DNA from: Candidatus Woesearchaeota archaeon
GTDB taxonomy: Archaea; Nanobdellota; Nanobdellia; Woesearchaeales; WJIZ01
Assembly: GCA_018221205.1 (NCBI GenBank)
Contig: JAAOYF010000046.1
Span: forward strand, 1,999 to 65,998
DNA length: 64,000 nucleotides
Direction: 5' to 3'
Made by a program: the position numbers and the translations under genes. Positions 5,614 through 60,182 of the stretch are shown here, in pieces. The notes below the pieces were generated by a model. It worked only from the letters and a program-made list of their open reading frames with translations, was not told the DNA's origin and did no database searches. How positions within the stretch are numbered: position 1 is the first letter of the stretch; every line of letters starts with the position of its first letter.

Positions 5614-5658
5614 GAGTTAGAATAAGTAGAGGCACTATAGTTGGCTAAACGTAAGGGG

Positions 5659-36055: not shown

Positions 36056-36610
36056 ATGTTAAAAGACTTGAAAGAGCAGAAAGAGAAGAGGCTTGGTAAA
36101 GTGTATCTGCAGGAAAAGTCCTCTTTAGTGAAGCTAGACAGCCTGTTCTCTGAACTCTCTCAAAAGTATGGCATGGATTATCAAAATGTCGCTCAATTAT
36201 TGAGAAGATTCCAGAGCTATCTCACTATCCCTGCTTCATTGTTCAAGACACGAGTGAGTCCTTTGGAAGCAGTTGTATTATTCTTACACCTTAAGTATAA
36301 GTGTACACAGACACAGATGGCTGAAATCCTTCATAGAGACCATACGACTATCTGGACTACGCTAGATAATGCCTGGAAGAAGACAACCAAAGCACAATTT
36401 CTGCAAAGCATTGAGGAAAGCGAGATATTGATCCCTGTCCACCTGTTATCAAATAGAAGATTGAGCATCTTAGAGGTTGTTGCCTCTTATATCAAAGATA
36501 AATATAGTCTGAAATATCGGGAGATTGCTACTTTATTAGATCGGGATGATCGGACTGTCTGGACTGTTATCGATAGAGCCAGAAAAAAGCTTATAAAGAA
36601 TAGACGATGA
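36056..36610 (+). CDS. Cassette-2 regulator with tandem sigma-70 r4 / HTH_10-like HTH units (paralog of 5659 and 46478)
   Basis: VSPLEAVVLFLHLKYKCTQTQMAEILHRDHTTIWTTLDNAWKK and LSILEVVASYIKDKYSLKYREIATLLDRDDRTVWTVIDRARKKL. There is an ATGA overlap with giant-2. Confidence 0.65.
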   Translation: MLKDLKEQKEKRLGKVYLQEKSSLVKLDSLFSELSQKYGMDYQNVAQLLRRFQSYLTIPASLFKTRVSPLEAVVLFLHLKYKCTQTQMAEILHRDHTTIWTTLDNAWKKTTKAQFLQSIEESEILIPVHLLSNRRLSILEVVASYIKDKYSLKYREIATLLDRDDRTVWTVIDRARKKLIKNRR

Positions 36611-46411: not shown

Positions 46412-46484
46412 GTTTACTCATATATATTTACTTTAGGGTAATATTTATAAATAGATATACTTATATGTATATACTAGATGCCTA
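46412..46484 (+). promoter_or_regulatory. Degenerate TACTTA...TAGG motif copies upstream of, and overlapping, the cassette-3 regulator start
   Basis: TTTACTCATATATATTTACTTTAGGGTAATA and ATACTTATATGTATATACTAGATGCCTAGG, the latter spanning the ATG at 46478. Confidence 0.45.
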
Positions 46485-46951
46485 GGAATCTGAGAAAAGA
46501 CAAGCGTTTTCTGCAAATTAGAGAGCTTTTAGAGCAGCTTGAGAAGGATTATGGGATAAGTAAAAAGGAGATTCTTGAGATTTCTGAAGACATCCTGATT
46601 CCGGTCTCGCTTTATTCTTCTGGATTGAGCTCTCTGGAGATCATTGTCAAATATCTGAAGGAGGGCAAGCAGTTTTCTCTTTCAACAATCGCGAAGCTTA
46701 CTGGTAGAAGCAAGCAAGGAGTATGGCAGTCTCTTTCACATGCCCGTAAGAAGCATCCTAAAGCATTCGTTTCTGATGCATCGCCTTATGATTTTCCTGT
46801 TTCCATAATCTCAGACAAGAAACACTCTGTTCTTGAGTCTATTGTCGTGCACCTCAAGGAAGCACATAGCTTGAGCTATGCACAGATTGCTAGACTGTTG
46901 AACAGGGATCAACGAACAGTGTGGACTGTATACAACAAAGTGAAGAAATGA
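46478..46951 (+). CDS. Cassette-3 regulator with tandem sigma-70 r4 / HTH_10-like HTH units
   Basis: LSSLEIIVKYLKEGKQFSLSTIAKLTGRSKQGVWQSLSHARKK and HSVLESIVVHLKEAHSLSYAQIARLLNRDQRTVWTVYNKVKK. Confidence 0.65.
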   Translation: MPRNLRKDKRFLQIRELLEQLEKDYGISKKEILEISEDILIPVSLYSSGLSSLEIIVKYLKEGKQFSLSTIAKLTGRSKQGVWQSLSHARKKHPKAFVSDASPYDFPVSIISDKKHSVLESIVVHLKEAHSLSYAQIARLLNRDQRTVWTVYNKVKK

Positions 46952-48075
46952 GCTCAACTGAAAGATTGCGGACGGAGAAAGAGCAGCTGCAAGAGAGCAT
47001 CATGAAGTGTGAACAATATCTCACTCAACTGGATCAGCGGCTCAATACCCTCACCAAGCAACTCGAGAATAAAGAGATAGATGAGCTTAGCTATACCATG
47101 CTCACCTCTACTTCACTAGGTGGACGGTCGTTCGGGCACTATATCTATCACTATGAAGACCTTATCAAGGGCTATCAGGAAAGGATAGCTAAGATAGATA
47201 AGAAGGTCAAGCATAAAAATACGACAGTCATCAGTGTTGCGGCTATCTTTGTTGCTATCATGCTCTCGAGCCTCTTCCTTAATTCAGATATCACTGGCCA
47301 GATCACTTTCAGCGTCATCGAGGCGCTTTCAGATCCTATCGAAAGGGAGTTCAATGAGAGTGTGAGAGTACCCTTAGATAATACGCAGGCCCTGAATACG
47401 TTCACCATGACCGGAAAGTATAATGGAACAGGGTTCTTGCGTATCTATCTTGATTCTCCGCGACAGTCTTACTTAGTGTACGGTACAGATGATCCTTCAA
47501 CATTCAAGGATGAATGCGGACAGGCCTGTTATCTGCAGCCCGAGGACAACTATACGCTGAGGATACAGCTTTCAGGACAAGGAAGCGTAAAAATTGAGAA
47601 AGTTACGTATCTCTTCTCTGAATTGAGAGAATTCACTCTCGAGCCAGAGGTGGCGATCCATAATCTGACAGACAATAGGTTCATCAAGGGCAGCTTTGAC
47701 CTTGTATCAAAGAGGGGAAGAGACTTCAGTGTTGCGCTCTATGGTGAGGGGCAGTTAGCAGATTATCTCACCCTCTACACTTCTTATGCAGACTTCAGGT
47801 CAAGTCCAGAACAGAAGATATCCTATGATCTTGATCTGCCGCTGCAGATGGCACCAGGTACGTATACCAGCAAGATTATCGTCAAATACCTGCCAAAAGA
47901 CAAGTTCTCTGGCAAGACTCCTGAAGAGGTGCATGATATTGTCGTCAATATAAGGGGGAGGGAAGAAGCAGCAGAGGAAGGCTCCTACCTCTCCATACTC
48001 TTCACTATCCTTATCGCTCTTTTCGGTATCAATCTGATCTATTTCCTCTATCGGAAGCTCTTTCTTAAAAAATAG
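46948..48075 (+). CDS. Ig-like membrane protein with a cytoplasmic coiled-coil N-terminus, an N-terminal TM with post-TM DITG motif, and a C-terminal TM plus basic tail (paralog of 34664 and 43863)
   Basis: ATGA overlap with the regulator stop (46948-46951), and the ORF track starts at 46921. VISVAAIFVAIMLSSLFLNSDITGQITF, GQLADYLTLYTSYADF (cf. GELAEYIGIKDSLMTV in the 34664 ORF) and C-terminal SILFTILIALFGINLIYFLYRKLFLKK. Confidence 0.6.
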   Translation: MSSTERLRTEKEQLQESIMKCEQYLTQLDQRLNTLTKQLENKEIDELSYTMLTSTSLGGRSFGHYIYHYEDLIKGYQERIAKIDKKVKHKNTTVISVAAIFVAIMLSSLFLNSDITGQITFSVIEALSDPIEREFNESVRVPLDNTQALNTFTMTGKYNGTGFLRIYLDSPRQSYLVYGTDDPSTFKDECGQACYLQPEDNYTLRIQLSGQGSVKIEKVTYLFSELREFTLEPEVAIHNLTDNRFIKGSFDLVSKRGRDFSVALYGEGQLADYLTLYTSYADFRSSPEQKISYDLDLPLQMAPGTYTSKIIVKYLPKDKFSGKTPEEVHDIVVNIRGREEAAEEGSYLSILFTILIALFGINLIYFLYRKLFLKK

Positions 48076-48145: not shown

Positions 48146-48328
48146 ATGAAGAAAAGCGACTTGCTCCACATCCGTGTGGGCAAAGAGATGAAGAAGCAGA
48201 TACAGAAGCTGATAGAGATAGGGCTGTTTTCTACTGAAGCTGAAATCGCACGCGAAGGCATACGAAGCATTCTCCTGAAATATCTGAAAGAGGCTGGTCT
48301 CGAAAAGAAGAATGATAAAAAGAAATAG
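48146..48328 (+). CDS. CopG-family ribbon-helix-helix DNA-binding protein
   Basis: MKKSDLLHIRVGKEMKKQIQKLIEIGLFSTEAEIAREGIRSILLKY matches the CopG pattern (beta-strand; ..ekid.lve.G.f.sRSEaIReAir..l). Confidence 0.55.
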   Translation: MKKSDLLHIRVGKEMKKQIQKLIEIGLFSTEAEIAREGIRSILLKYLKEAGLEKKNDKKK

Positions 48329-51300
48329 GGCTAAGAAGTTCGTCGAAGAAGCTTTAGATAGAGGCCACTCTCTCAAAGATATCAAACTAGTGATGGATAA
48401 GAGAGGATACTCGCGGCAGGAAATCAAACAGGTTGTGCAAGAGTATGAGCATCCGTGGAAAATATCAAACAATACTCTTGCAGTCTTTGTCATTGTGCTA
48501 GCGCTCGGCTCTCTTCTGGGGAATTATTATCTTCTACAATCAATGGAAGCTCCTGAGCCAGAGGTAACAGCTATGGTCAGCATAGCCCGCGCCACTTTCT
48601 GCGTGAATGCGGGACCTACCATCAATACATCAGACTGCAATGCTACTGCCTCAGTCAATACTCCTTATGACTGTGAAATAAATGCCACTGATACAGATAT
48701 CGGAACAGCGTATAATTTTACTGACAATACAACCCTTTTTGATATCAATTCAACAACAGGAGAGATCAATTTCACCCCCACAATCGGAGATATCGGCAGT
48801 TATCACATCAATTTCAGTGTTTTTGACGGCAGCGGCTGCAGCAATGAGTATATATCGAGCATATTCAACCTGACCATCTCGTTGGATTGCGGCAGCAAAC
48901 AAGCCCCTCAATTCACTGACCTTGGAACAACATATAATTTCTCAAGAAAGGAGAATCTCTCGCTCTATATCAACGCAAGTGATCCTGATAATGATAGCAT
49001 CACTATCAATGCCGAATTAGTGAGTTCCAACGCTTACACACCGTTCAATGTCTCGGAAATCCTCAATGGCAACTGGATCAATTTCACTCCCACCATAGCA
49101 CATGTCGGCTGGCACCTGTTCAATATCTCGGTAACAGATAACAGCAGCTGCCAGAATGACACGAGCTGGCAGCTTGTCAATGTCACTGTCTGGGCCAATA
49201 ATTCCGCTCCTCAATATATCGGCTCATCAGGAGATCTAGATTATACGCTGAATGAAGATACCACTGTCAATAATGTCTATAATCTAGACGACTATTTCAA
49301 CGATTCAGATGGAGACTGCCTGAAATATGAGATATCCTATTCAGTAGCCAACCCAATCCTCAATATCGTTGTCAACAACAATGATGATCCACGCGACCTG
49401 AGCAGCTGCCCTTCAGACCATCTGGTGACGCTTATACCTTCTCCAAATCAATTCGGCACTGTGATAGCATTCATCATCGCCAATGACACGTTAAATGTCT
49501 CTGAAATTGTCACGGTCACCTTCACTATCCTCAATGTGGCTGAAGTGATCAGCTTACCTACTCCTAGCAGCGGAGGCGGTGGAGGAGGACCGACGCTGAA
49601 CTTATGTAACGAGCGATGGACCTGTACACCATGGAACCAGAGCGAATGCGTCAATGGATTCATGACCAGGGAATGTGATGATCTCAATGACTGCCACACC
49701 ACGAAGTTCCAGCCGAATGAGACAAAGATATGCCAATATATCGACCACTGCAGTGATGGTGTGAAGAATTTTGATGAGGATGGAGTGGACTGCGGCGGGT
49801 CATGTCAGGCAAGCTGCTCGACCTGTTTCGATGCAGTCATGAACTGCCATAAATTAGTGAATGGAACACAGATCTGTGAAGAAGGTGTGGACTGTGGCGG
49901 ACTTTGTCAGGCCTGTTCATTAGCAGATCTAGTGGGCAAGATCGATCTGGAAAAGGAGCCTTTGAGCCCGACCCAGCAGACCTTCAGATGGCTCATGTTT
50001 TGGATCCTCCTTTTCATCGTATTGGCAATTCTCACCTATTGGACTATCAAGAAGATGCAGCCGCCGAAAAAGAAGAGCGAGCAAGAAGAGGTCAAGAAAT
50101 TCAGCGCACTCTGGTGGCTGAGACTGATACAGCGCCATAGACAGGATGTACGGACGACCCAGCTTGAGCTTATGGCAAGACCGAGCAAACTCACCCTGTT
50201 CTGGGAGAAGGCTACCTTCTTCTGGCCGCGGAAGGCACCGGATTACATCCCAAACCTTGATCAGAAAATCAAAACTCTGCGGAAGAAGGTGAGCAAGAAT
50301 GATAATGAGCATGTCGCCAAGAAGCTTGGAGAGTACATGAAGCTCTGGCTTGCCCATGACTTCAACATAGAATATTCAGCAACTTATGAAGAATTGAGCC
50401 AGGAGATGAGAGAACGGAAGAAGAAAGAGCTTATCCATGGCAAGATTGAACCGTTCTTCGATGATCTGGTGAAAGCAGAGTTCAGCGGACGGCAGATAGC
50501 TGACAAGAAGATGAGAAGTCTTATCACCACCGCCTTGTCTATCATGACCTTCAGGCCCAAGCCGAGGAGGCAGACCCCTGTTGTCGCGAGCATCGTGGTC
50601 ATCCTTGCTTTATTGGGAGCTATGTTCCTGCAGCCTGATATCACTGGATTATTCACGTTTACCCAAGAGCAAAGCATCGATGTCTTTATGCAATTCAATG
50701 CATCTGGCACGCTGCCATTGGATATTATCGGTGCTGACAGCATCAGCATAGACGGCTGGATATCGCAGGATGCAGAGATATATATCTACGCCGGAGACAG
50801 CATTGTCCTGGACAGCTCGTTGCTGAAAAAAGGAAAGACACCGACCAGAACCGATGTCAAGATCCCCTTTACAGAAGGAATAAAGCAGATAGATGCGAAG
50901 ATCGATTATGGGGACAGTGCATGGGATCCTGACAATGACGGCGTGGAACCTATTGAAAATGCTGTCGATGTCAGTGTCAAAGGAAGCCTGTTCAACGGAA
51001 TCGATGATAAGGGCAAGCTCTGTACCTTATGGGAGATCGAGAATGATGCAAAAAGCTTCATCTGCAACGGCAATGTTGACTGCTGCGCACTTCTTGAGAC
51101 CCTTCCTGAAAACGATGAGTGGGACGAGCCTTTATTCTTGAGTTATGGCAAACACGGCGCGAAAGAGGAAAACATTGTCTGGGCAAGGATATATTATATA
51201 AATTACAACCTTGATCCAGAAAATGCCTATTCAGAGATTGTCGAGTCTGAACAGGAATCTATCAGCGTCTACTTCGAGCCCTCAACTATAGGCTTCGAGA

Positions 51301-54300
51301 AAGAATGCGTCGAAAGCTGCTCTTTCACCTTTGATCGGAAAGAGTTGAAGATAGAACTCATGAAAGGAGAGCTATTCATCGAAAAAGTCCATTATGGCAA
51401 GCGTATAAATGCACCTCCCCTGGTAAGGGCACTTCCGAATATCAGCTCTGACATCAACAAGGAGATCATCATCAATCTCAAGGATTACATAGAAGATGCT
51501 GAGAACGATTCTTTGAGCTATGCGATAACAGGCCTCAGAGATTTCATCATCGCCTATGAAGGAGATCTTCTGCGTATCACTCCTCCTGAGGATTATGAAG
51601 GACAATCTACAGTATTCATCATCGCCAATGACTCTACTTCTATCGGTGTCTCTAATCTCTTTGATATCACTGTAAGGAAGATCTTGGAGGAAACTGTCCA
51701 AGAGAAAGCTGAAGTCGGCAAGCCGGTGAAATGGATCAAGAAAGTGCATGCTTACAACAAGTCAATCATCAAGCTTGATCACGTCCCCATGAACGTCACT
51801 GTACAAGGCATTGAAGGCCTCTCAAAGAGGACACTGCACAAGATCACTGTCAAAGACCAAGATCGATTCATCCCGCTCCAAAATTATCTGCGAGCACCTC
51901 AAGTTGTCGGTGTGGCAGCTGCTGAGGATGACCTCCTCCCTGCTGAACTCATGATAGATGAAGATATCCAAGAAATCGAGATAGAGTATTATACAGAAGC
52001 GCCTGAATTGATCGAAGAAGAAGTGACGACATCACTCAAGAAAGTGGTCATCAGTTCTCCTGTCCATTATGAGAACATCACTGCCTTTACTGCTATCGAT
52101 GACAAGCCTCGTTCTGCCATCCATCTCTTCAGGACAACTGACGGCATACGGGAGAAAGTCAGTTTCGAGGCATTTGATGAGAATGCCAACGGTCTGATCG
52201 ATAAGATAGAATGGATTGTCCCGCACCTGAGCAACCAGACTTATGAAGTGGAGATCTCGGTATTGAATGTGCAGAGCTATCCTACTGTCGGAGGGATATG
52301 GGAGGTACGATTCAACACCACAGGCAAGGCAAACCTGACGATAAGCGCGATCAATAACACACTCTACGGAAGCTCGTTGCCGAATGATCTCCTCCCTGAT
52401 GAGCTGCAATGCGGCTTCACTGATCTGAACTATACATGGGAGGGCAATGATGTCACCTACAATGATTATGAATGCAACCAGACAGGATATTGGAAGGTCA
52501 TTGTTCTGACTGAAGGGGTCCATAACCAGCAGTTCACTTTCGGTGATGCTGTCGCGTATGCAAACAATCTCGCAAGCGTGAACGGCACAGGCGGGAATCT
52601 GACTGTCTGGGACGACTCCGACTTAGGAGAGGTCTTTGCTACAGACAATGTCACGTTCTCTGTCAACTATACCAACGGATTCCAGATATCAAATGGCACA
52701 TGCGAAGTCGAGTTCAATCTCACCGGCAGCTATCAGAACAAGACGAATATGACCTATAATGGGGTAGCGTCTCCCTGGACCTACAACAGAAGTATCCCTT
52801 ACAAAGGCACGAGCTATTTCCATGTCATCTGCCAGAATGCGACCATGCCGACACTCAATGTGACAGACAGTGTCTACATCAACAATACCTCACCTACCTT
52901 CAATAAATCCGCAGGCAAGCTTCCTTCTCTCGTTTGTGTCGAGGATACACCCTGCGAATACAATATGAGCAAATATGTCATCGATCCAGACCTTAATGAT
53001 GATTTCACTTTTGACTACGGTGCTTTATCGATACGAAACCTTACCGAGCATCCGGACTGCAGCAATTGCTGGGTATTCAATTTCGATCATGGTAAGTTTA
53101 TCGTCAATGTCACCACCTCTGACCATGCTAATCAGACGCCTTGGAGCCCTGTCGTGAGTGTCCTTGATTCTGATGGGGGCTCTGATTCTGCTACTGTTGA
53201 TATCTCAATGAGTGAGGTGAATGATTATCCAGTCTTCACTAATCCATCTGGGATAAGCCTCACTGATGCGACTGCAGAATCTGTCTATAATTATGATGTC
53301 GATGCGACAGATGAAGAAGATATCACGACAACAGATTATAATTTCACCATACTCAGCTGCCAGCAGGTGTATCTTTCAGACTGCTCTGCACTGAACGTCA
53401 GCATCAACAGGACAACAGGCATTATCTCAGGAACGCCCGGAACGTTTGATCCCGGTAACTATACACTTAATCTGAGCACCACTGATAATGATACTGCTAT
53501 AACCTGGAAGCTAGTCAATCTGTCTGTCATCGATGTCAATAACGCGCCTGTCTTTGATCTTGTCTGCGCCGGCTCCCGGTCTGCCCTTGAAGACAGCGCA
53601 TTCAATTGCACGATCAATGCATCTGACGCTGATGCCGATCCTTTGACCTTCGGTTCCAATTACAGTTGGTTCACTCTTGATAGCACTGGAGCGAGAAGCG
53701 TCTTAGCGAACTTCACCCCGACCAATGCAGAAGTCGGCAATTATACCATCAAGCTGAATGTGACTGACGGATTGCTGACAACAAGCACGTTCATCAATTT
53801 CTCGGTGAACAATACAAATGATGTCCCTTATATGCTTAACATCACCAATCAGCTGGCTGTTGTCAACATCGACTTCAGGAGGAATGTAAGCGGGCATGAC
53901 GATGACCTGTATCAGCCCTATAATATCTTCAACGCAGTCGGGGATACGTTGAGCTTCACCATCAACCTCAGTTTTATGAGCATCACGAAAATCAACGCTA
54001 CTTCGGCGACGATGAATTTCACTCCAGCATCAGGCCAGGAAGGGAACTACTCTGTCCTGGTCAATGTCTCAGACAACGCAGGAACGTATGGCATCACCAC
54101 ATTCAATCTGACCATCAGGAACAACACTGCCCCTATCATCAAATGGATCTGTGACAATGACAGGATCATCCAGGAGGAGGAAGTATTCAAATGCTGGGTG
54201 AATGCCACTGATATCGATGGAGACAATTTCACGTTCTCGACGAACGGCACGTGGTTCAATATCAATGCAACATCTGGAAATGTCAGTATGATCCTCAATG

Positions 54301-57300
54301 ACAGCGATGTGGGCAATTACACCATCAGGTTCACGGCGACAGATTCCTGGGGAAGCTCAAGCCTCAACGACACCAATTTCACTGTCAATAACACACCTGA
54401 ATTCCCCTATATGTTCATCCCAAACATCAATGCGACACAGAACGAGACCTTGCTGTATAATCTCAGCGCAAATGTGACAGATGAGGACCAGAATACGATC
54501 TTCGGTGATATACTCCATTTCTATTCAAATGGAAGCTTCTCGGGGAACTTCTCTGTTAATGAATTGACTGGCTTGATGAATTTCACCCCTGACGGGTCAG
54601 ATGGAGGAATTTTCTATCTGAACATCACAGTAAATGACAGCGCGGGATTAATAAGCACACAGACGATCATCCTCACTGTCGAATTGATCAATTACCCACC
54701 TGAACTGGACACTATCTGCGACAACCTGACCAGCGCCAGGGAAGATGTATTCTTCAGCTGCACAGTCAATGCTACAGATGCCAACCCTAGCGATAATCTC
54801 ACTTTCAATGTGAGCATCATCGGAGGAGGCAGTTGGTTCAACATCAATGCATCAGGATATGTGAACTTCACCCCGATTAATGCGAATGTCGGCAACCATA
54901 CCCTCAACTTCACTGTCTATGATGGAGTGCTCTGGGATTATCGACTCATCAATTTCTCAGTGAACAACACAAATGACGCCCCTGTGTTTGATGCCAATCC
55001 GAATCTTAATGGGACAGAAGACATTCTTTTCAACTATACGCTGAATGTGAGCGATGACGATTTATCAGTGCCTGTAGGTGAGAACCTTTCCTATTTCTCG
55101 AACAGCACGTTCTTTACTGTCAATCAATCTACCGGACAGATTGTTTTCATACCGAACAGCAGCCAGGTCGGGAATTATTCTATCAAGTTCAATGTCTCAG
55201 ACCTGAACGGAAGCTTTGATACCCTTATCAGAAACTTCACCATCAGTTTCTATGATGACTTCCCTGTATTGCAATTCATACCCAATCTCATCGTCGAGGA
55301 ATTATCGCAGCTGTATCATGACGTCAACGCGACTGACGAGGAAGATGCTGAAAACCTGCTGAGATTCAGGACCAACGCCTCTGCTGCCCTTTTTGTCATC
55401 AATGTGCTTACTGGAGAGATCAATTTCACTGCGAATGCATCACAGGCAGGCATACATCATATCAACTTAACGGTCAACGATACTATAGGCAGAGAGACCT
55501 CTCAAGTGTTCAACCTGACGGTCACCTTATTCAATTTCGATCCCAATATCACTACAGTCTATCCTTATGGAACCCCTAAAGTGAGCTATACTGAATTCTC
55601 GTTCGCCAACAGATCAGATTTTCCGACCAATATCACCTCGATCAACCTTGCGGAAAATAATACCTATCTCTTCAATGTCTCTATCCAAGACGGCAATGGC
55701 GATAACATCAACTACAGTTGGTATAAGAATGGGACGCTTGTCTACAGTTCGAACGAAACATCGAGCTTCAACTATTCAGTGGGCCTGACAGATGAGGGAT
55801 TGCGGAACATCACCGTGATCATCTCAGACGGTCGTGGAGGCACTGACAGATTCAGCTGGAATGCGACAGTGAACAATTCAAACAGAAAGCCCTTATTCGG
55901 TGTGAAGGAATATGATGAAGAATCAGAGTTTTCCGGAACAGAGAATGACACCAATGTCACATCTGGAGGCATCATCCTTGCTGTCAACGGCAGCGTATTC
56001 GCCAATGCCGGCGATTATGTCTCCCTATCTATCGATATGGGTGCATTGGTGAGCAGTTTCTATAATCCTATCGGCTATACGACGATTGAGTGGGTCGCAA
56101 CCACCCCCGCAGACACGAGTGTCACAGCACAGACACGGACTTCTGACAATGGTGTGAGCTGGGGCAACTGGAGTTCCCCTTACAGCTCGGGATCGAGGAT
56201 CACCTCAACGAACACGACTTATATCCAGTATAAGCTGAATTACCAGACGAACAATACTGCTTCAACTCCAAATGTCACGACTGTACGCATCAGACATATC
56301 ATCCCTGATCTGCTCGCTGACCAGGGAGATACCAATCCAAACTGGATTGACCTTGATGATTATTTCATTGATATCGATACTGAAGATACACTACAATTCA
56401 CAGTGACGGGCTACACCAATATCCAATTTTCTATCAGCAGCAGTACCCATGTCGTCGGTATCACCATCCCCAACACGGCGACAGGCGAAGAGGTCATCTA
56501 TTTCACTGTAAATGACTCGTATGATACTGAAGTGAGCAATAATATCACGATAACCATCAATGAAACACCCCAGCAATCTGCTGTTGAAATCGTGACTGTC
56601 ACCACCACTAAGAGCAAGACCGTCATTAAATTCAGGCCTCGGGATGTTGAAGTGTATGAACCACTGCAGATCCTTGTGCCTCAGCATCTGACGAGTTTTG
56701 ATGATGAGACCATGGTGGCTCCGATCAAGCTTTCGAATATGGGGGAATCACTGCTGACCGGCATAACTTTATCTGCCGGTACCAATGCTGAAGGAGTGGA
56801 ATTATGGTTCAGCCGGAATACCTTCGACAGTCTCAGTCCAGGAACAGAATTTGAAACTGACCTTTTCATGAGATGGACAGGCCTTATTGCAGAATTTGAC
56901 GTCATCGTCAATGCAACCTCGATTGACCCTGTCTTCACTGATTCTGCCATTGTCTCGGTAACAGGCATCAAGCGTGTCGAGAGCAACCGCAGTATCGTCG
57001 AGGACCATATCTCTTTTGTTCGCGATCTCCTTGCGAATAATCCACGCTGTCTGGAGTTGAATGAGCTGGTTGAAGAATCAGAGAAGGCATTAGCGGCAGG
57101 CGACCTGACGAAAGCACGGAACCTCTGGAACTTTGTGATCAATGGTTGCCGAACCTTATTGGAATCTGTGCAGGACGTTGAACAATCCACACCCATTCAG
57201 CAGAGAGAAGGAGATTTGTTCAAGATCGTCTCAGGAGTACTGCTCTTGCTGCTGTTCATCACTGCAATCATCATCCTGGCACTTGCAAGAAGAAAGAAAT

Positions 57301-57308
57301 CAATGTAA
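48312..57308 (+). CDS. Giant-3, a 2998-aa polytopic surface protein built as two modules, [TM1, cadherin-like Ig domains, Cys-rich, TM2] and [sequon-free loop, TM3 + DITG motif, giant-1-like N-domain, ~9 cadherin-like (He_PIG/CADG-type) repeats, C-terminal domain, TM4 + RRKK]
   Basis: Continuous 9-kb ORF. Hydrophobic helices at nt ~48481-48531, 49989-50045, 50581-50631 and 57226-57288. Repeats bounded by N-[DNT]-[AY]-P-[VEIY]-[FM] run 53170-55800. The 50700-52280 block is homologous to giant-1 6780-8200. Protein ends ...ILALARRKKSM. Confidence 0.85.
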   Translation: MIKRNRAKKFVEEALDRGHSLKDIKLVMDKRGYSRQEIKQVVQEYEHPWKISNNTLAVFVIVLALGSLLGNYYLLQSMEAPEPEVTAMVSIARATFCVNAGPTINTSDCNATASVNTPYDCEINATDTDIGTAYNFTDNTTLFDINSTTGEINFTPTIGDIGSYHINFSVFDGSGCSNEYISSIFNLTISLDCGSKQAPQFTDLGTTYNFSRKENLSLYINASDPDNDSITINAELVSSNAYTPFNVSEILNGNWINFTPTIAHVGWHLFNISVTDNSSCQNDTSWQLVNVTVWANNSAPQYIGSSGDLDYTLNEDTTVNNVYNLDDYFNDSDGDCLKYEISYSVANPILNIVVNNNDDPRDLSSCPSDHLVTLIPSPNQFGTVIAFIIANDTLNVSEIVTVTFTILNVAEVISLPTPSSGGGGGGPTLNLCNERWTCTPWNQSECVNGFMTRECDDLNDCHTTKFQPNETKICQYIDHCSDGVKNFDEDGVDCGGSCQASCSTCFDAVMNCHKLVNGTQICEEGVDCGGLCQACSLADLVGKIDLEKEPLSPTQQTFRWLMFWILLFIVLAILTYWTIKKMQPPKKKSEQEEVKKFSALWWLRLIQRHRQDVRTTQLELMARPSKLTLFWEKATFFWPRKAPDYIPNLDQKIKTLRKKVSKNDNEHVAKKLGEYMKLWLAHDFNIEYSATYEELSQEMRERKKKELIHGKIEPFFDDLVKAEFSGRQIADKKMRSLITTALSIMTFRPKPRRQTPVVASIVVILALLGAMFLQPDITGLFTFTQEQSIDVFMQFNASGTLPLDIIGADSISIDGWISQDAEIYIYAGDSIVLDSSLLKKGKTPTRTDVKIPFTEGIKQIDAKIDYGDSAWDPDNDGVEPIENAVDVSVKGSLFNGIDDKGKLCTLWEIENDAKSFICNGNVDCCALLETLPENDEWDEPLFLSYGKHGAKEENIVWARIYYINYNLDPENAYSEIVESEQESISVYFEPSTIGFEKECVESCSFTFDRKELKIELMKGELFIEKVHYGKRINAPPLVRALPNISSDINKEIIINLKDYIEDAENDSLSYAITGLRDFIIAYEGDLLRITPPEDYEGQSTVFIIANDSTSIGVSNLFDITVRKILEETVQEKAEVGKPVKWIKKVHAYNKSIIKLDHVPMNVTVQGIEGLSKRTLHKITVKDQDRFIPLQNYLRAPQVVGVAAAEDDLLPAELMIDEDIQEIEIEYYTEAPELIEEEVTTSLKKVVISSPVHYENITAFTAIDDKPRSAIHLFRTTDGIREKVSFEAFDENANGLIDKIEWIVPHLSNQTYEVEISVLNVQSYPTVGGIWEVRFNTTGKANLTISAINNTLYGSSLPNDLLPDELQCGFTDLNYTWEGNDVTYNDYECNQTGYWKVIVLTEGVHNQQFTFGDAVAYANNLASVNGTGGNLTVWDDSDLGEVFATDNVTFSVNYTNGFQISNGTCEVEFNLTGSYQNKTNMTYNGVASPWTYNRSIPYKGTSYFHVICQNATMPTLNVTDSVYINNTSPTFNKSAGKLPSLVCVEDTPCEYNMSKYVIDPDLNDDFTFDYGALSIRNLTEHPDCSNCWVFNFDHGKFIVNVTTSDHANQTPWSPVVSVLDSDGGSDSATVDISMSEVNDYPVFTNPSGISLTDATAESVYNYDVDATDEEDITTTDYNFTILSCQQVYLSDCSALNVSINRTTGIISGTPGTFDPGNYTLNLSTTDNDTAITWKLVNLSVIDVNNAPVFDLVCAGSRSALEDSAFNCTINASDADADPLTFGSNYSWFTLDSTGARSVLANFTPTNAEVGNYTIKLNVTDGLLTTSTFINFSVNNTNDVPYMLNITNQLAVVNIDFRRNVSGHDDDLYQPYNIFNAVGDTLSFTINLSFMSITKINATSATMNFTPASGQEGNYSVLVNVSDNAGTYGITTFNLTIRNNTAPIIKWICDNDRIIQEEEVFKCWVNATDIDGDNFTFSTNGTWFNINATSGNVSMILNDSDVGNYTIRFTATDSWGSSSLNDTNFTVNNTPEFPYMFIPNINATQNETLLYNLSANVTDEDQNTIFGDILHFYSNGSFSGNFSVNELTGLMNFTPDGSDGGIFYLNITVNDSAGLISTQTIILTVELINYPPELDTICDNLTSAREDVFFSCTVNATDANPSDNLTFNVSIIGGGSWFNINASGYVNFTPINANVGNHTLNFTVYDGVLWDYRLINFSVNNTNDAPVFDANPNLNGTEDILFNYTLNVSDDDLSVPVGENLSYFSNSTFFTVNQSTGQIVFIPNSSQVGNYSIKFNVSDLNGSFDTLIRNFTISFYDDFPVLQFIPNLIVEELSQLYHDVNATDEEDAENLLRFRTNASAALFVINVLTGEINFTANASQAGIHHINLTVNDTIGRETSQVFNLTVTLFNFDPNITTVYPYGTPKVSYTEFSFANRSDFPTNITSINLAENNTYLFNVSIQDGNGDNINYSWYKNGTLVYSSNETSSFNYSVGLTDEGLRNITVIISDGRGGTDRFSWNATVNNSNRKPLFGVKEYDEESEFSGTENDTNVTSGGIILAVNGSVFANAGDYVSLSIDMGALVSSFYNPIGYTTIEWVATTPADTSVTAQTRTSDNGVSWGNWSSPYSSGSRITSTNTTYIQYKLNYQTNNTASTPNVTTVRIRHIIPDLLADQGDTNPNWIDLDDYFIDIDTEDTLQFTVTGYTNIQFSISSSTHVVGITIPNTATGEEVIYFTVNDSYDTEVSNNITITINETPQQSAVEIVTVTTTKSKTVIKFRPRDVEVYEPLQILVPQHLTSFDDETMVAPIKLSNMGESLLTGITLSAGTNAEGVELWFSRNTFDSLSPGTEFETDLFMRWTGLIAEFDVIVNATSIDPVFTDSAIVSVTGIKRVESNRSIVEDHISFVRDLLANNPRCLELNELVEESEKALAAGDLTKARNLWNFVINGCRTLLESVQDVEQSTPIQQREGDLFKIVSGVLLLLLFITAIIILALARRKKSM

Positions 57309-57908
57309 TGTCTTCATGACATCATTTATCTTTTCCCGATGAAAACCTAGGGCATGCAATTCTGTCCGTAGTTGGGAACGGCTTATGCCCAGTTCGTGGC
57401 TCACCAGAGCATATCGCTGCATATAATCAAATTCCTTGTCCTGCATATGATCAATGAGATCCAGGACTTCTTCTTTAGTCTCTTTTTCGACGGCCTCTTT
57501 ACCTTCTTTCACCTTTTGCTTCTTATGCAGTTGGTTCTTCTTTTCTTTCTCTGCTTTTTCTGCTTTATTCATTAAAGTGCCTAAGAAAGATCTGTCCTCG
57601 ACATGCGTGGCTATCAAATCCCTAATGATGGTCCTGATCTCTTCATGCATGATGTCCATCTCCACTTTAGAAGACTTTTTTTGGCTGTATTCAAGATCCT
57701 GGAAGCGTTGGCAGAGCATCTGGACAGCAGACTTGACTTCTGGAACGAGCTTTCTCTTCTTGATCACCGTTTTCAGCTCTTCAAACGTATATTGATAGCG
57801 GATGCCCATCACATCCCTCAGAATCTCTCTCAGCAGCGCTGCTAAACTGTCAATAGAATGGGCTTGAGCCAGCTTTCTCAGGTACTTTTCCCTATGTAAT
57901 CCTGCCAT
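57300..57908 (-). CDS. Hypothetical helical protein convergent on the giant-3 stop
   Basis: ORF-track 202 aa, Lys/Glu-rich with a coiled-coil-like middle. No motif recognised. Confidence 0.4.
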   Translation of the reverse strand: MAGLHREKYLRKLAQAHSIDSLAALLREILRDVMGIRYQYTFEELKTVIKKRKLVPEVKSAVQMLCQRFQDLEYSQKKSSKVEMDIMHEEIRTIIRDLIATHVEDRSFLGTLMNKAEKAEKEKKNQLHKKQKVKEGKEAVEKETKEEVLDLIDHMQDKEFDYMQRYALVSHELGISRSQLRTELHALGFHREKINDVMKTLH

Positions 57909-58004: not shown

Positions 58005-59291
58005 ATGCCTAGGCTGAAGACTAAAAAAAGGGGTAAAGCTGATAGAATCGACCGGCTGAGAGCAAAGCTGGAGAGGGATCAGTCTCGACTCAATCGACGA
58101 GGCCCCAAACATATGGCTGATGTCGAAGAACAGATTAAACAGATTTCTAAACAAGGATCTAAACAAACTGAACCAGAACCAGAACATGAGCCAAGATCAA
58201 CAGCTGCGACAGTACGGGCGGATGAAACACAAGATGCAGTAGATAGGATCGTCAATTCTGTCAAGGACCAGGCACAGGAGCCGACAGACCAACTGCAGAA
58301 ATTTTTGCTGAGCAAGACGTATGCCAACAGGTTAAAGGCATATGTCAAGGTCTTTGCAGATGTCAGAAAAGAGATCGCTAAACTTGTCGTCGGGCAGGAT
58401 GAGATAGTAACTGCACTTCTTCGTGCGTTGGTCTCTGACGGCCACGTCTTGATAGAGGGCGTCCCGGGAATCGCAAAAACAACCTTGATCAGGGCCCTCT
58501 CTAAAACTCTTGACTGCTCTTTTGCGCGAATCCAGTTCACTCCCGATCTTCTGCCGAGCGATATCATCGGCATCAGCACCTATCAGGAAGGAAGAGGATT
58601 CTATACTTTAAAAGGACCTATCTTCAATAATTTTATCCTGGCAGATGAGATCAACAGGGCGCCGCCTAAAGTACAGAGTGCGCTGCTCGAGAGCATGGCA
58701 GAGAAACAGGCCACTATCGCCAAGGAGACCTTTCCTGTTCCGCTACCCTTTTTCACCATGGCAACACAGAATCCCTTAGAGAGCATGGGGACCTATACCT
58801 TGCCAGAAGCACAGATCGACAGATTCCTGTTCAAGCTCTATATGGGCTATCCTAATATTGAAGATGAGCAGCTGATTCTCCGCTCGAACATCAATGAGCA
58901 GCTCTTTGATACGTATGAGATAAAGCCCATACTCAATCCAGAGACCCTTCTCGATATCCAGGCCGATTCAAAGAAGATATATGTCGCAAAGAAAGTGGAG
59001 AAGTATATCGTGCGCATCGTCGATGCGACACGAAATCCGAAGAAGTACGGCGTTTCACTGGGCAAATATATCGACTATGGAGGCTCACCTCGAGCATCTA
59101 TCGGCATCTTCAAAGCTGCCAGATCTGATGCGATGATCCATGGGCAGAATTTTGTCACTCCACACCATGTCAAGGCAGTCACGAAGGATGTCTTGAGGCA
59201 TCGACTGCTGATGAGTTATGAAGGGCAGGCAGAGAATATCAAATCAGAAGATATCATCGATGAAATCCTGAAAAAGGTTCCTGTTCCATGA
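58005..59291 (+). CDS. MoxR-family AAA+ ATPase
   Basis: VGQDEIVTALLRALVSDGHVLIEGVPGIAKTTLIRALSK (Walker A) and FILADEINRAPPKVQSALLESMAE (Walker B/sensor) are typical of MoxR. Confidence 0.9.
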   Translation: MPRLKTKKRGKADRIDRLRAKLERDQSRLNRRGPKHMADVEEQIKQISKQGSKQTEPEPEHEPRSTAATVRADETQDAVDRIVNSVKDQAQEPTDQLQKFLLSKTYANRLKAYVKVFADVRKEIAKLVVGQDEIVTALLRALVSDGHVLIEGVPGIAKTTLIRALSKTLDCSFARIQFTPDLLPSDIIGISTYQEGRGFYTLKGPIFNNFILADEINRAPPKVQSALLESMAEKQATIAKETFPVPLPFFTMATQNPLESMGTYTLPEAQIDRFLFKLYMGYPNIEDEQLILRSNINEQLFDTYEIKPILNPETLLDIQADSKKIYVAKKVEKYIVRIVDATRNPKKYGVSLGKYIDYGGSPRASIGIFKAARSDAMIHGQNFVTPHHVKAVTKDVLRHRLLMSYEGQAENIKSEDIIDEILKKVPVP

Positions 59292-60181
59292 AAGAGATTA
59301 AGTTAGACATTCTTCCCCTCATCAAGAAGCTTGAAACGTTTTTGAAGAAAGGATTCTCTCATGATTTGATGGCAGGCAACTATCTTTCTGTGTATAAAGG
59401 GAAAGGCATGGAATTCGTCGGATTTCGAGAATATTCTCCGAGCGATGATGCTATGCTCATAGACTGGAAAGCTTCTTTGCGAGCGCATAAACCGATGGTA
59501 AGGGTACTGCAAGAGGAAAGAAATCTGACTGTGTTTTTTCTCATGGACGTTTCAGACAGCATGCTGACTGGCTCACACAGCAAATTGAAATGCGAGTATG
59601 CCGCTGAGATGATCGCTACACTCAGCTACGCCATCCAACAGGTAGGCGACAATGTAGGCATTGCGATGTTCAACGATAAGGTAGTAGATTTCATCCCTCC
59701 TTCTCCTGGAAGGCATCAGTTCTATCAGATTGTGAGAAGCCTGAAGAATCCAGAACACTATGGCGGCAAATTCGACATATCCTATGCACTGGAGTACTTG
59801 GTTACGTTGGGTTTCCTGGAAAAGGATTCTATCGTGTTCCTTATCAGCGATTTCATCGGCATGAAACCAGGATGGGACCATACCTTGAAGTTAGCAGGCC
59901 TGAAGTATGACCTGACGGCAATCGTTGTGCGCGATCCGGTAGATCTACGCATGCCTTCCATACCTGGAGAATTCGAATTACGAGATCCCCTGTCAGGGAA
60001 TCAATTGCTCATCAATCCTGTCGAAGCCAAAGAAGGGTATGAGCGCGAGGTAAAGAAACAGTTGGCAGTACTGCAGAGTGAGCTTAAAAAGACTGCCTCG
60101 AATTATCTCTTATTAGAGACAGACCAGGAGTTTGTCAACGACATCATCACGTTTTTCAGGAGGAGACTCAGAACACATTAG
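59288..60181 (+). CDS. DUF58-domain protein, MoxR operon partner
   Basis: GMEFVGFREYSPSDDAMLIDWKASLRA is the DUF58 hallmark. It overlaps the MoxR stop by 4 nt. Confidence 0.8.
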   Translation: MKEIKLDILPLIKKLETFLKKGFSHDLMAGNYLSVYKGKGMEFVGFREYSPSDDAMLIDWKASLRAHKPMVRVLQEERNLTVFFLMDVSDSMLTGSHSKLKCEYAAEMIATLSYAIQQVGDNVGIAMFNDKVVDFIPPSPGRHQFYQIVRSLKNPEHYGGKFDISYALEYLVTLGFLEKDSIVFLISDFIGMKPGWDHTLKLAGLKYDLTAIVVRDPVDLRMPSIPGEFELRDPLSGNQLLINPVEAKEGYEREVKKQLAVLQSELKKTASNYLLLETDQEFVNDIITFFRRRLRTH

Positions 60182-60182
60182 C

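What the first reader, a model, noticed from the sequence alone, without database searches (positions are those of the whole stretch)
48312..57308. Giant-3 looks like a fusion of two membrane-anchored modules joined by a sequon-free cytoplasmic loop
Module A (aa ~1-600) runs from TM1 through cadherin-like domains and an EGF/follistatin-like Cys-rich region to TM2 plus a KKK stretch. Residues encoded by 50046-50580 form a ~175-aa Lys/Arg-rich segment with no N-x-S/T sequon, whereas extracellular parts carry about one per 8 aa. TM3 and the same post-TM DITG motif then follow, with the same N-domain as giant-1, about nine cadherin-like repeats, and TM4 plus RRKKSM. The inferred topology is in-out-in-out-in with four TM helices, or two genes fused. 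The sequon-free loop resembles the cytoplasmic N-termini of giant-1 and of the 46948 ORF.
Basis: partly seen in the sequence, partly recalled or inferred. Interest (0 to 1): 0.6.

Follow-up and report, generated by a model that had tools for sequence, protein, structure and literature searches.

The report
Fused four-helix giant archaeal surface protein
This 2998-residue gene of a DPANN-type archaeon is a real, conserved fusion of two membrane-anchored surface-protein genes that are separate in related archaea, and the stretch joining them is the leftover cytoplasmic tail of the first protein.

Summary
Window 48312-57308 (+) is one uninterrupted 2998-aa ORF. It has four strong hydrophobic segments at aa 56-74, 561-579, 755-773 and 2972-2990. 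Between TM2 and TM3 lies a 175-aa loop that is Lys/Arg-rich, Cys-free and sequon-free.

The fusion reading is supported and can be made sharper.
- Three collinear orthologs from independent assemblies (33-53% identity) keep the same four segments and the same loop, so this is not a missed stop.
- Module A plus the loop is a widespread DPANN family of 640-900 aa. Its order is TM, Ig/cadherin-like repeats, 'DCGG' Cys-rich repeats, TM, then a cytoplasmic helical tail domain of about 100 aa. The loop is that tail domain, truncated.
- TM3, its PxITG motif and the N-domain form the N-terminus of more than 80 separate DPANN proteins, including giant-1.
- In one relative (L084) an A-type gene and a B-like gene are adjacent, with an ATGA stop/start overlap.
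- The tail domain also occurs in a soluble neighbour (57300-57908, minus strand), which argues that it is cytoplasmic.
- A MoxR-DUF58-BatA operon is linked to these genes in six of seven loci.

The function, probably adhesion or cell envelope, is inferred. Whether the protein is cleaved after TM3 is open. This is a new variant of a known kind, of moderate interest.

The parts
48312..57308 (+). giant-3 CDS, 2998 aa, one uninterrupted ORF (stop at 57306-57308)
   Evidence: Collinear with orthologs: 42.9% identity over 3165 columns to P0066 and 43.0% over 2998 columns to P0067. Matches the L009 ortholog at 53% (C-terminal part) and 33% (N-terminal part).
48312..48461 (+). N-terminal cytoplasmic segment (aa 1-50) with a ~45-aa 'GYS'-type helical motif
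   Evidence: 13 K+R and no sequon. A profile of this motif hits the N-termini of other DPANN N-domain giants: L016, L063, L051 and L047.
48477..48533 (+). TM1 (aa 56-74), signal anchor of module A
   Evidence: hydropathy 2.03. Conserved in orthologs.
48534..49601 (+). ectodomain A: Ig/cadherin-like (Big_9-type) repeats, aa 75-430
   Evidence: 6.5 sequons per 100 aa. Repeats similar to those of module B, E 2e-10. Homologs found.
49602..49946 (+). Cys-rich region, aa 431-545: 16 Cys and two 'DCGG' repeats
   Evidence: The module-A family carries 2-6 DCGG repeats. No Pfam match.
49992..50048 (+). TM2 (aa 561-579), stop-transfer anchor of module A
   Evidence: hydropathy 2.42. 5-10 K/R in the 15 aa after it in all four orthologs.
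50049..50573 (+). loop, aa 580-754, inferred to be cytoplasmic
   Evidence: 0 sequons, 0 Cys, K+R 40 against D+E 23. The same pattern holds in three orthologs.
50235..50546 (+). tail domain inside the loop (aa 642-745): ~100-aa helical bundle with motifs F.IEY..TYEEL and EFSG
   Evidence: Profile hits to the C-terminal tails of stand-alone proteins, 41-60 bits in the first round and 18 members after iteration. Exhaustive phmmer hit to P0068, E 1.7e-4. AF2 model with pLDDT 80 and five helices.
50574..50630 (+). TM3 (aa 755-773), the former N-terminal signal anchor of module B
   Evidence: hydropathy 2.51. Aligns with the N-terminal TM of P0001. 4-7 K/R in the 15 aa before it in all four orthologs.
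50631..50648 (+). post-TM motif QPDITG (family consensus [KR]P.[IL]TG[FYLM])
   Evidence: The motif is present after the anchor in 52 of 83 N-domain ORFs.
50631..52511 (+). N-domain of module B (aa 774-1400), shared with giant-1
   Evidence: E 2.5e-53 to giant-1. E 3e-67 to P0001. 206 relatives in GTDB species genomes. Low-confidence all-beta model.
52512..56591 (+). tandem Big_9 / tandem-95 / cadherin-like repeats (aa ~1401-2760)
   Evidence: About 8 sequons per 100 aa over aa 1301-2760.
56592..57224 (+). conserved C-terminal ectodomain (aa 2761-2971)
   Evidence: About 50% identity among orthologs. The same domain followed by a TM ends other DPANN surface proteins.
57225..57305 (+). TM4 (aa 2972-2990) and basic C-terminus LARRKKSM
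   Evidence: hydropathy 3.06. Conserved in orthologs.
48146..48328 (+). 60-aa ORF, weakly ParD-antitoxin-like, overlapping the g3 start by 17 nt
   Evidence: 85% and 67% identical ORFs sit at the same place in L002 and L003. Weak ParD-type match.
57300..57908 (-). 202-aa soluble protein with no TM, whose N-terminal half is a paralog of the loop tail domain
   Evidence: Profile hit 32 bits, E 1.4e-9. Its orthologs in L002, L003, L009 and L084 also hit the profile.
58005..61118 (+). MoxR AAA+ ATPase (58005-59291), DUF58/vWA (59288-60181), BatA/vWA (60132-61118)
   Evidence: Directly downstream in all four fused loci and nearby in L084 and L085.
46478..48075 (+). upstream conserved pair: sigma-70-region-4-like HTH protein (46478-46951) and a 384-aa two-TM protein with post-TM NSDITG (46921-48075)
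   Evidence: Conserved in L002 and L003.

Best explanation
Giant-3 is a genuine single gene of a DPANN (Nanoarchaeia/Woesearchaeota-type) archaeon. It arose by in-frame fusion of two neighbouring surface-protein genes.

Parent A is a family of 640-900 aa. Its order is: N-terminal anchor, N-glycosylated Ig/cadherin-like repeats, DCGG Cys-rich repeats, a TM, and a cytoplasmic helical 'tail domain' of about 100 aa. Parent B is a protein that starts with a signal anchor carrying a PxITG motif. In giant-3 this anchor is followed by the N-domain, Big_9 repeats, a conserved C-terminal domain and a TM.

The fusion removed A's stop codon and the part of its tail beyond the helical domain. A's tail therefore became a cytoplasmic loop, and B's signal anchor became an internal start-transfer helix (TM3).

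Inferred biogenesis:
- TM1 inserts with the N-terminus inside and ectodomain A is exported and glycosylated.
- TM2 stops transfer and the loop stays in the cytoplasm.
- TM3 restarts export of the ~2200-aa ectodomain B.
- TM4 anchors it.
The result is two extracellular arcs, each tethered at both ends.

The likely role, inferred from domain types only, is cell-surface adhesion or envelope structure. The loop's helical domain would serve as a cytoplasmic docking site. Candidate partners are the soluble paralog encoded next door, the adjacent MoxR-vWA system, or both.

Shown here: gene continuity, homology of each part, conservation of the fusion, existence of unfused relatives, and the compositional asymmetry. 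Inferred: topology, glycosylation, function, and the partner of the loop.
For: Continuity and conservation of the fusion.
- The ORF is uninterrupted and the alternative frames at the junction are full of stops.
- Three orthologs from independent sources are collinear across all four hydrophobic segments: a Logan assembly of run SRR29660418, GCA_030647105.1, and contig JANQND010000022.1.

The loop is A's tail.
- g3 aa 290-741 aligns collinearly with aa 405-820 of the stand-alone 910-aa protein P0068, through TM2 and into its tail (E 1e-42).
- Exhaustive phmmer with the loop alone, against 1.84 billion representatives, returns only the two fused giants and P0068.
- A profile of the domain hits the C-terminal tails of P0004-7 and others.
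- Stand-alone homologs end 0-110 aa after the domain.

TM3 is B's N-terminus.
- P0001 and giant-1 start with this TM, the PGIIG motif and the N-domain.
- Of 87 N-domain ORFs in 83 loci, only the fused orthologs have additional TMs plus a tail domain upstream.

Unfused state.
- In L084 the A-type gene P0004 is followed, with an ATGA overlap, by a B-like gene. That gene shares g3's repeats and C-terminal domain (E 6e-90 by blastp, profile E 8e-44).
- A soluble tail-domain gene follows it, and MoxR-DUF58-BatA lies nearby.
- L085 is similar.

Topology.
- In all four orthologs the loop has 0-1 sequons, 0 Cys and K+R at about twice D+E.
- The ectodomains have 4.8-5.9 sequons per 100 aa, about three times the number expected from composition. 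They have 24-27 and 24 Cys, and D+E well above K+R.
- K/R cluster on the loop side of TM2 and TM3 and after TM4.
- Ten ORFs of the window taken as cytoplasmic controls have 3 sequons in 2717 aa.
- The same domain occurs in TM-less soluble proteins.
Against: No topology predictor or experiment was available, so the topology is inferred from composition and homology.

The N-domain, which must be extracellular, is also sequon-poor at 1.3 per 100 aa. Sequon absence alone therefore does not discriminate.

A complete stand-alone 'module B' was not found in the sample. Such a protein would combine the anchor, N-domain, repeats, C-terminal domain and TM. The L084 and L085 B-like genes lack the N- and C-terminal parts of the N-domain, so the exact parent of module B is not identified.

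The loop domain has no Pfam, NCBIfam or significant PDB match, so its function is unknown.

The conserved PxITG motif after TM3 fits the -3/-1 small-residue rule of signal peptidase. The mature protein may therefore be cut there.

Whether this organism N-glycosylates was not tested.
Confidence: 0.8

Rival explanations
1. Polyprotein-like precursor. The fused ORF is translated as one chain, but a signal-peptidase-type enzyme cuts after the conserved PxITG motif that follows TM3, and perhaps after 'PEVTA' that follows TM1. Module A would then be released as a fragment ending in TM2, the loop and TM3. Module B would be a separate type I protein anchored by TM4.
For: The motif after the anchor is unusually conserved: [KR]P.[IL]TG[FYLM] in 52 of 83 N-domain ORFs, and in all four fused orthologs after TM3. 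It has I/L at -3, G at -1 and a Pro about 5 residues upstream, which fits the general -3/-1 rule for type I signal peptidase (own knowledge). After TM1 many module-A relatives have [ILV]TG. g3 has VTA, which keeps a small residue at -1.
Against: Many family members, g3 and giant-1 included, carry a conserved cytoplasmic segment of 45-95 aa before the anchor. That is hard to explain if the anchor is cut off and discarded. No cleavage predictor or proteomic data were available. The motif could equally be the first beta-strand of the ectodomain. ITGY-like motifs also occur inside P0001, far from any TM.
Confidence: 0.25
2. Two genes wrongly joined. A sequencing or assembly error removed a stop codon or introduced compensating frameshifts between 49900 and 50700.
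For: The two parts are separate genes in most relatives. Met745 followed by 'TFRPKPRRQTP' and a TM looks like an ancestral start.
Against: Three orthologs from independent assemblies and samples have the same uninterrupted junction. The other two frames around the junction are full of stops and encode no continuation of the tail. Read data were not available to check coverage.
Confidence: 0.02
3. Overlapping expression. In addition to the full-length product, module B is made on its own from an internal start near Met745 (nt 50544), so the cell still has a 'B-only' protein.
For: Met745 sits 10 residues before TM3 and gives a typical short basic n-region followed by an anchor.
Against: The Met is not conserved at that position in the three orthologs. 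No Shine-Dalgarno-like or TATA-like sequence lies upstream of it, although SD use in this genome is irregular and so this is weak evidence.
Confidence: 0.07

Closest known systems
Stand-alone DPANN 'module A' proteins with cytoplasmic tail domain (P0004, P0005, P0006, P0007, P0068 and others; annotated only as hypothetical or Ig-like domain proteins of Woesearchaeota/Nanoarchaeota)
   Same: Same order of parts: N-terminal anchor, sequon-rich Ig/cadherin-like repeats, 2-6 DCGG Cys-rich repeats, TM, basic stop-transfer stretch, then the ~100-aa helical tail domain. Identity to g3 module A is 26-38%. They are often next to MoxR-DUF58-BatA.
   Different: They end 0-110 aa after the tail domain. 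g3 continues into a second anchor and a second ectodomain of ~2200 aa.
DPANN N-domain surface proteins (giant-1 of this window, P0001, and 206 matches in GTDB species genomes)
   Same: Signal anchor, [KR]P.[IL]TG motif, the same N-domain (28-46% identity), and long Ig-like repeat arrays.
   Different: In all of them the anchor is the first TM of the protein. Only g3 and its three orthologs have module A and a cytoplasmic loop in front of it.
Giant membrane-anchored surface proteins of Nanohaloarchaeota ('SPEARE' proteins; PMC10266531 and Hamm et al. 2019 as cited there)
   Same: Very large surface proteins in small-genome DPANN archaea, rich in Ig-like repeats and membrane-anchored. They are proposed to mediate host contact (PMC10266531).
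   Different: PMC10266531 describes those proteins as having a Sec signal peptide and a VirB4/TraG-like ATPase domain. The Pfam scan of g3 matched only Ig-like, cadherin-like and PKD repeat families. g3 also has four TMs and two ectodomains. No sequence comparison with SPEARE proteins was run here.
Bacterial tandem-95 / Big_9 repeat adhesins (NCBIfam NF012211, Pfam PF17963)
   Same: The repeat unit of both ectodomains matches these models above their cut-offs.
   Different: g3 is archaeal, sequon-rich and polytopic. The N-domain, C-terminal domain, DCGG repeats and tail domain are not covered by those models.
MoxR-DUF58-BatA/vWA ('Bat'-type) operons
   Same: The three neighbouring genes match AAA_3/bpMoxR, DUF58 and BatA+VWA strongly.
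   Different: g3 itself is not a member of any of these families. Only conserved gene neighbourhood links them. No functional link was tested.

Membership tests
Pfam Big_9 (PF17963) / NCBIfam tandem-95 repeat (NF012211) | Profile match above the curated cut-off | tested here: met
   Big_9: 90.7 bits against a cut-off of 23.6, in 8 stretches. tand_rpt_95: 93.3 bits against a cut-off of 90.
Cadherin-like domain (PF17892 Cadherin_5) | Profile match above the curated cut-off | tested here: met
   28.5 bits against a cut-off of 26.5, overlapping a Big_9 stretch. This is marginal, so 'cadherin-like' is a fold-level label only. Classical Cadherin PF00028 was not matched.
EGF / follistatin-type Cys-rich domains | Profile match of the Cys-rich region aa 422-560 | tested here: not met
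   No Pfam family at E<=10. The region consists of DCGG-type repeats shared with DPANN homologs.
DPANN module-A / tail-domain family (unnamed) | N-terminal TM, Ig-like repeats, DCGG repeats and a second TM, in that order | tested here: met
DPANN module-A / tail-domain family (unnamed) | ~100-aa helical tail domain directly after the second TM | tested here: met
   Collinear alignment into the tail of P0068. Profile hits. phmmer E 1.7e-4 against 1.84 billion proteins.
DPANN module-A / tail-domain family (unnamed) | The protein ends after the cytoplasmic tail | tested here: not met
   g3 continues for 2250 aa. This difference is what defines the fusion.
DPANN N-domain family (giant-1, P0001) | Hydrophobic anchor, PxI[TI]G motif and N-domain | tested here: met
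DPANN N-domain family (giant-1, P0001) | The anchor is the first TM of the protein | tested here: not met
   In g3 it is the third TM. In about 80 other loci it is the first.
SPEARE-type giant proteins of Nanohaloarchaeota | VirB4/TraG-like ATPase domain (as described in PMC10266531) | tested here: not met
   The Pfam scan of g3 at E<=0.1 lists only Ig-like, cadherin-like and PKD repeat families.
HEPN domain | Significant fold match and a conserved Rx4-6H motif | tested here: not met
   Best Foldseek hits are HEPN proteins, but at E 0.7-1.8 and TM 0.55-0.6. The 17-member alignment has no invariant column, and an R..H pattern is present in only some members.
DUF4381 / BatD-type helical motif (recalled from memory as a lead) | Pfam profile match | tested here: not met
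   No such family among the hits of any of the 17 tail-domain sequences at E<=10.
Archaeosortase substrates (PGF-CTERM) | PGF motif before the C-terminal TM; NCBIfam/TIGRFAM match | tested here: not met
   The C-terminus reads ...GDLFKIVSGVLLLLLFITAIIILALARRKKSM with no PGF. The NCBIfam scan gave no sorting-signal hit.
Polytopic in-out-in-out-in membrane protein | Experimentally or algorithmically determined topology | not testable with these tools
   Only hydropathy, flanking charges, and sequon and Cys distribution were computed.

The most novel reading that the evidence does not exclude
The fused ORF may be an archaeal 'polyprotein'. The conserved [KR]P.[IL]TG motif after TM3 would be a dedicated processing site. 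One translation product would then be cut at an internal signal sequence into two co-assembled surface proteins. The loop's tail domain, its soluble paralog (57300-57908) and the always-adjacent MoxR-DUF58-BatA(vWA) proteins would form a cytoplasmic assembly or quality-control module for giant DPANN surface proteins.
Probability: 0.15. Interest if true: 0.65.

Novelty: new variant of a known kind. Interest (0 to 1): 0.4.

Why it matters
DPANN archaea live attached to other cells and devote a large share of their tiny genomes to giant surface proteins whose architecture is mostly unannotated. This case does three things.
- It gives a clean, conserved example of how such giants are built by joining neighbouring surface genes. 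An N-terminal signal anchor is converted into an internal start-transfer helix, and a C-terminal tail into a cytoplasmic loop.
- It defines an unannotated cytoplasmic tail domain of about 100 aa. The domain is shared by many DPANN surface proteins and by a soluble neighbour.
- It shows that these genes are repeatedly linked to a MoxR-DUF58-vWA operon.

Together these give concrete candidates for how the inside of the cell is coupled to its surface adhesins. No new mechanism is demonstrated.

Tried and rejected
- Pfam scans of the loop, the Cys-rich region, the N-domain and the C-terminal domain gave no family at E<=10.
- Pfam scans of all 17 tail-domain sequences gave only scattered single-member hits, the best at E 0.003. 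No family was shared by more than one member and there was no DUF4381 hit.
- An NCBIfam scan found only repeat models.
- A PDB sequence search with the tail profile returned only designed or unrelated helical proteins.
- Foldseek of the tail model against PDB gave weak HEPN-like helical-bundle hits that are not significant.
- AF2 of the N-domain with a 5-sequence alignment gave pLDDT 54. A fold search of the poor model gave only generic Ig/cadherin/adhesin matches.
- The search for homologous proteins with the tail alignment returned nothing.
- A genome scan with the single junction sequence found nothing. Two metagenome scans, one with the junction alignment and one with the C-terminal-domain alignment, also found nothing.
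- g3 itself is not on record in the protein-position index.
- I tested whether the loop is related to the N-termini of giant-1 and of the 46921 ORF. There was no profile hit and no blastp hit, so this was rejected.
- I tested whether the C-terminus of the 57300 protein resembles g3's N-terminal motif. There was no profile hit at E<=1, so this was rejected.
- No tRNA gene is present in the window, so tRNAs give no help in placing it.
- The literature searches found only general descriptions of DPANN giant surface proteins. None describes this architecture.
Full report
**1. What is in the sequence**

Window 48312-57308 (+) is a single ORF of 2998 codons without a stop. A 19-residue Kyte-Doolittle scan finds exactly four strong hydrophobic segments: aa 56-74, 561-579, 755-773 and 2972-2990. 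The stretch between the second and third segments, aa 580-754 (nt 50049-50573), contains no N-x-S/T sequon and no Cys. It has 40 K+R against 23 D+E and only 2.3% Asn.

The two stretches that would be extracellular differ sharply from the loop.

| Stretch | Sequons | Expected from local composition | Cys |
|---|---|---|---|
| aa 70-560 | 26 | 9.4 | 24 |
| aa 774-2971 | 126 | 38 | 24 |

Both have a large excess of D+E over K+R. Basic residues cluster after TM2 (KKMQPPKKK), before TM3 (RPKPRRQ) and after TM4 (RRKKSM). The outer flanks have 0-1 K/R. Ten ORFs of the same window that I took as cytoplasmic controls carry 3 sequons in 2717 aa.

- Sequon density is about 1 per 17-19 aa overall and 1 per 12.5 aa in the repeat array, not 1 per 8.
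- The N-domain (aa 774-1300), which must be outside, has only 1.3 sequons per 100 aa. Absence of sequons is therefore not by itself proof of a cytoplasmic location.
- The Cys-rich region has no EGF or follistatin match.

**2. The parts**

Pfam recognises only the repeats: Big_9 in 8 stretches (E 1e-25), plus Cadherin_5, PKD and He_PIG. NCBIfam gives tandem-95 repeat at 93 bits.

Residues 775-1299 are homologous to residues 112-639 of giant-1 (window 6222-33725) at 28.6% identity, E 2.5e-53. In giant-1 this domain follows directly on the single N-terminal TM and a 'TPGIIG' motif.

A database search with aa 540-1300 found one protein, P0001 (820 aa). It begins MNAVRNKERYRLLPLLAVFILL...KPGIIGY and aligns with g3 from residue 748 onward. 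TM3, 'QPDITG' and the N-domain are therefore the normal N-terminus of a protein family.

**3. Module A and the loop**

A search with aa 1-579 returned 64 proteins, mostly 640-900 aa, from Woesearchaeota/Nanoarchaeota MAGs. Their sequences share one architecture:
- an N-terminal TM;
- sequon-rich Ig-like repeats;
- 2-6 copies of a C.DG..N..E.G.DCGG.C..C repeat;
- a second TM followed by a basic stretch;
- a cytoplasmic tail containing a conserved motif, ...F.I...FTYEEL......EYSG....

The g3 loop carries the same motif (NIEYSATYEELSQEM...KAEFSGRQ).

An exhaustive phmmer search of 1.84 billion representatives with the loop alone gave three hits. Two are giants, of 3174 aa (P0066) and 2955 aa (P0067). 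The third is a stand-alone 910-aa protein, P0068 (E 1.7e-4). g3 aa 290-741 aligns collinearly with P0068 aa 405-820, through TM2 and into the tail (E 1e-42).

A profile built from these four sequences hits the tails of P0004-P0007 at 41-60 bits. It also hits the soluble 202-aa protein encoded at 57300-57908 (-) at 32 bits, E 1.4e-9. After iteration, 18 sequences in my small set belong to the domain.

The domain is predicted as a five-helix bundle (pLDDT 80, pTM 0.72). It has no Pfam, NCBIfam or significant PDB relative. The profile does not hit the N-termini of giant-1 or of the 46921 ORF, so that resemblance is compositional only.

**4. Is the fusion real?**

P0066 comes from a Logan assembly of run SRR29660418 (locus L002). 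P0067 comes from GCA_030647105.1, a Nanoarchaeota MAG (locus L003). They align with g3 end to end in single HSPs, at 42.9% identity over 3165 columns and 43.0% over 2998 columns. A fourth ortholog lies on JANQND010000022.1, a Nanoarchaeia MAG (L009 7520-17245). It is 53% identical in the C-terminal 1800 aa and 33% in the N-terminal 1170 aa.

All three orthologs have the same four hydrophobic segments. Their loops have 1, 0 and 0 sequons, no Cys, and K+R at about twice D+E. Each has exactly 24 Cys in ectodomain B. The loci are syntenic.

In the window, the other two reading frames around the junction are full of stops. A missed stop or frameshift is therefore excluded as far as sequence comparison can exclude it.

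Met745 (nt 50544) followed by TFRPKPRRQTP and TM3 looks like the ancestral start of module B. It is not conserved in the orthologs, and no recognisable initiation signal precedes it.

**5. Are the modules separate elsewhere?**

Yes. A scan of one genome per GTDB species with an N-domain alignment gave 206 matches, of which 80 loci were kept. Together with the three loci fetched earlier, this gave 87 N-domain ORFs. Only the fused orthologs (L002, L003=L004, L009) have extra TMs and a tail domain upstream of the N-domain. In nearly all the others a single TM precedes the N-domain.

In L084 (GCA_043817075.1), the module-A protein P0004 (900 aa, with tail) is followed by a 1341-aa gene with an ATGA stop/start overlap. 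That gene starts with an anchor ('...STDPSIIG'). It shares g3's repeats and C-terminal domain (blastp E 6e-90, C-domain profile E 8e-44). It is followed on the opposite strand by a soluble tail-domain protein. MoxR-DUF58-BatA lies 3 kb upstream.

L085 has the same components, with the MoxR operon between the A-type and B-like genes.

The most economical history is that neighbouring, co-transcribed A and B genes were joined in the ancestor of the g3 clade. The join was a deletion that removed A's stop and the distal part of its tail. Stand-alone tails extend 0-110 aa beyond the domain.

One caveat applies. I did not find a stand-alone protein that combines the full N-domain with the C-terminal domain. 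Module B is therefore itself a mosaic, and its exact parent is unknown.

**6. How it most likely works**

Inferred: the chain inserts co-translationally.
- TM1 acts as an N-in signal anchor and ectodomain A is exported.
- TM2 is a stop-transfer helix and the tail domain stays inside.
- TM3 acts as an internal start-transfer helix.
- TM4 is the final anchor.

This gives two glycosylated extracellular arcs tethered at both ends.

Three lines of evidence support the cytoplasmic location of the loop: the charge distribution, the sequon and Cys pattern in four orthologs, and the occurrence of the same domain in TM-less proteins.

The ectodomains consist of adhesin-type beta-sandwich repeats. No enzyme domain was detected. 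The likely role is adhesion or envelope structure, as proposed for other giant DPANN surface proteins (PMC10266531).

The loop domain is probably a protein-protein docking module. Candidate partners are the soluble paralog next door and the MoxR/vWA proteins. These are adjacent in six of the seven loci examined. That link is neighbourhood evidence only.

**7. Open alternative**

The motif after the anchor is strongly conserved. It reads [KR]P.[IL]TG[FYLM] in 52 of 83 N-domain ORFs. It is retained after TM3 in all fused orthologs, and a similar [ILV]TG follows TM1 in module-A relatives. It fits the -3/-1 rule of type I signal peptidase (own knowledge).

If it is a cleavage site, the fused ORF would be a precursor cut into two proteins. 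Against this, many family members carry conserved cytoplasmic segments of 45-95 aa in front of the anchor. I could not test cleavage.

**8. Verdict**

The gene is a new architectural variant within known DPANN giant surface proteins. It belongs to a small clade with four members known so far. Two metagenome scans found no further member.

Interest is moderate. The fusion itself is an ordinary evolutionary event. The unannotated tail domain, its soluble paralog, the conserved MoxR-vWA linkage and the conserved post-anchor motif are concrete, testable leads.

Noticed in passing
window 57300-57908 (-): A 202-aa soluble protein with no TM and no sequon. Its first ~105 residues are a paralog of the g3 loop / tail domain (profile E 1.4e-9). 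Orthologs sit at the same position in L002, L003 and L009, and next to the unfused pair in L084.
   Followed up: partly
window 58005-61118 (+); L002, L003, L009, L084, L085: A MoxR AAA+ / DUF58 / BatA-vWA operon lies directly downstream of all four fused genes. It lies within a few kb of stand-alone module-A genes in two distant DPANN genomes, but not in L086. This suggests a functional link between this system and tail-domain surface proteins.
   Followed up: partly
window 48146-48328 (+): A 60-aa ORF with a weak ParD-antitoxin-type match (E 0.001), which suggests a ribbon-helix-helix fold, overlaps the g3 start by 17 nt. ORFs 85% and 67% identical occupy the same place in L002 (4034-4246) and L003 (9811-10020).
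   Followed up: partly
window 5641-6237, 36056-36610, 46478-46951 (+); L001 2018-2308: Small proteins with sigma-70 region-4-like HTH motifs sit just upstream of giant-1, giant-2, the 46921 ORF / giant-3 unit, and P0001 in another DPANN contig. They look like a recurring regulator / surface-gene pairing.
   Followed up: no
g3 aa 774-779 (window 50631-50648); 83 ORFs in loci L001-L083: The motif [KR]P.[IL]TG[FYLM] directly after the signal anchor is present in 52 of 83 N-domain proteins. A similar [ILV]TG follows the first TM of module-A proteins. It may be a processing or sorting signal of DPANN surface proteins.
   Followed up: partly
window 48312-48461; N-termini of ORFs in L016, L063, L051, L047: A ~45-aa cytoplasmic N-terminal motif (..k.yi...L..GYS...I...L...GY....i...i..Y) precedes the anchor in g3, two of its orthologs, P0002 and several unrelated N-domain giants. 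By analogy only, it is reminiscent of the extended signal-peptide regions of large bacterial adhesins.
   Followed up: partly
window 36607-42864 (+): Giant-2 (2085 aa, N-terminal signal-like TM, Kelch and MopE-type motifs) has only 5 sequons (0.2 per 100 aa). Giant-1 and giant-3 have about 5 per 100 aa. It may have a different origin or a different glycosylation status.
   Followed up: no
window 34664-35875 and 43863-45041 (+): Two paralogous ~400-aa proteins with an N-terminal signal, a weak sub-threshold CARDB match (in the 34664 ORF only) and a C-terminal TM with a K-rich end. They have homologs beside module-A genes in L084 and L085, so they may belong to the same conserved surface gene set.
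   Followed up: no
loci L006, L012-L014, L016 and others: Many GTDB records that carry these DPANN-type genes are titled 'uncultured Methanosarcinales archaeon'. The titles probably do not reflect the true lineage.
   Followed up: no
L079 16714-19593: A 960-aa protein combines part of the N-domain with a TM and a C-terminal tail domain (E 3e-16). The tail domain is therefore used as a cytoplasmic end-piece on more than one type of DPANN ectodomain.
   Followed up: no
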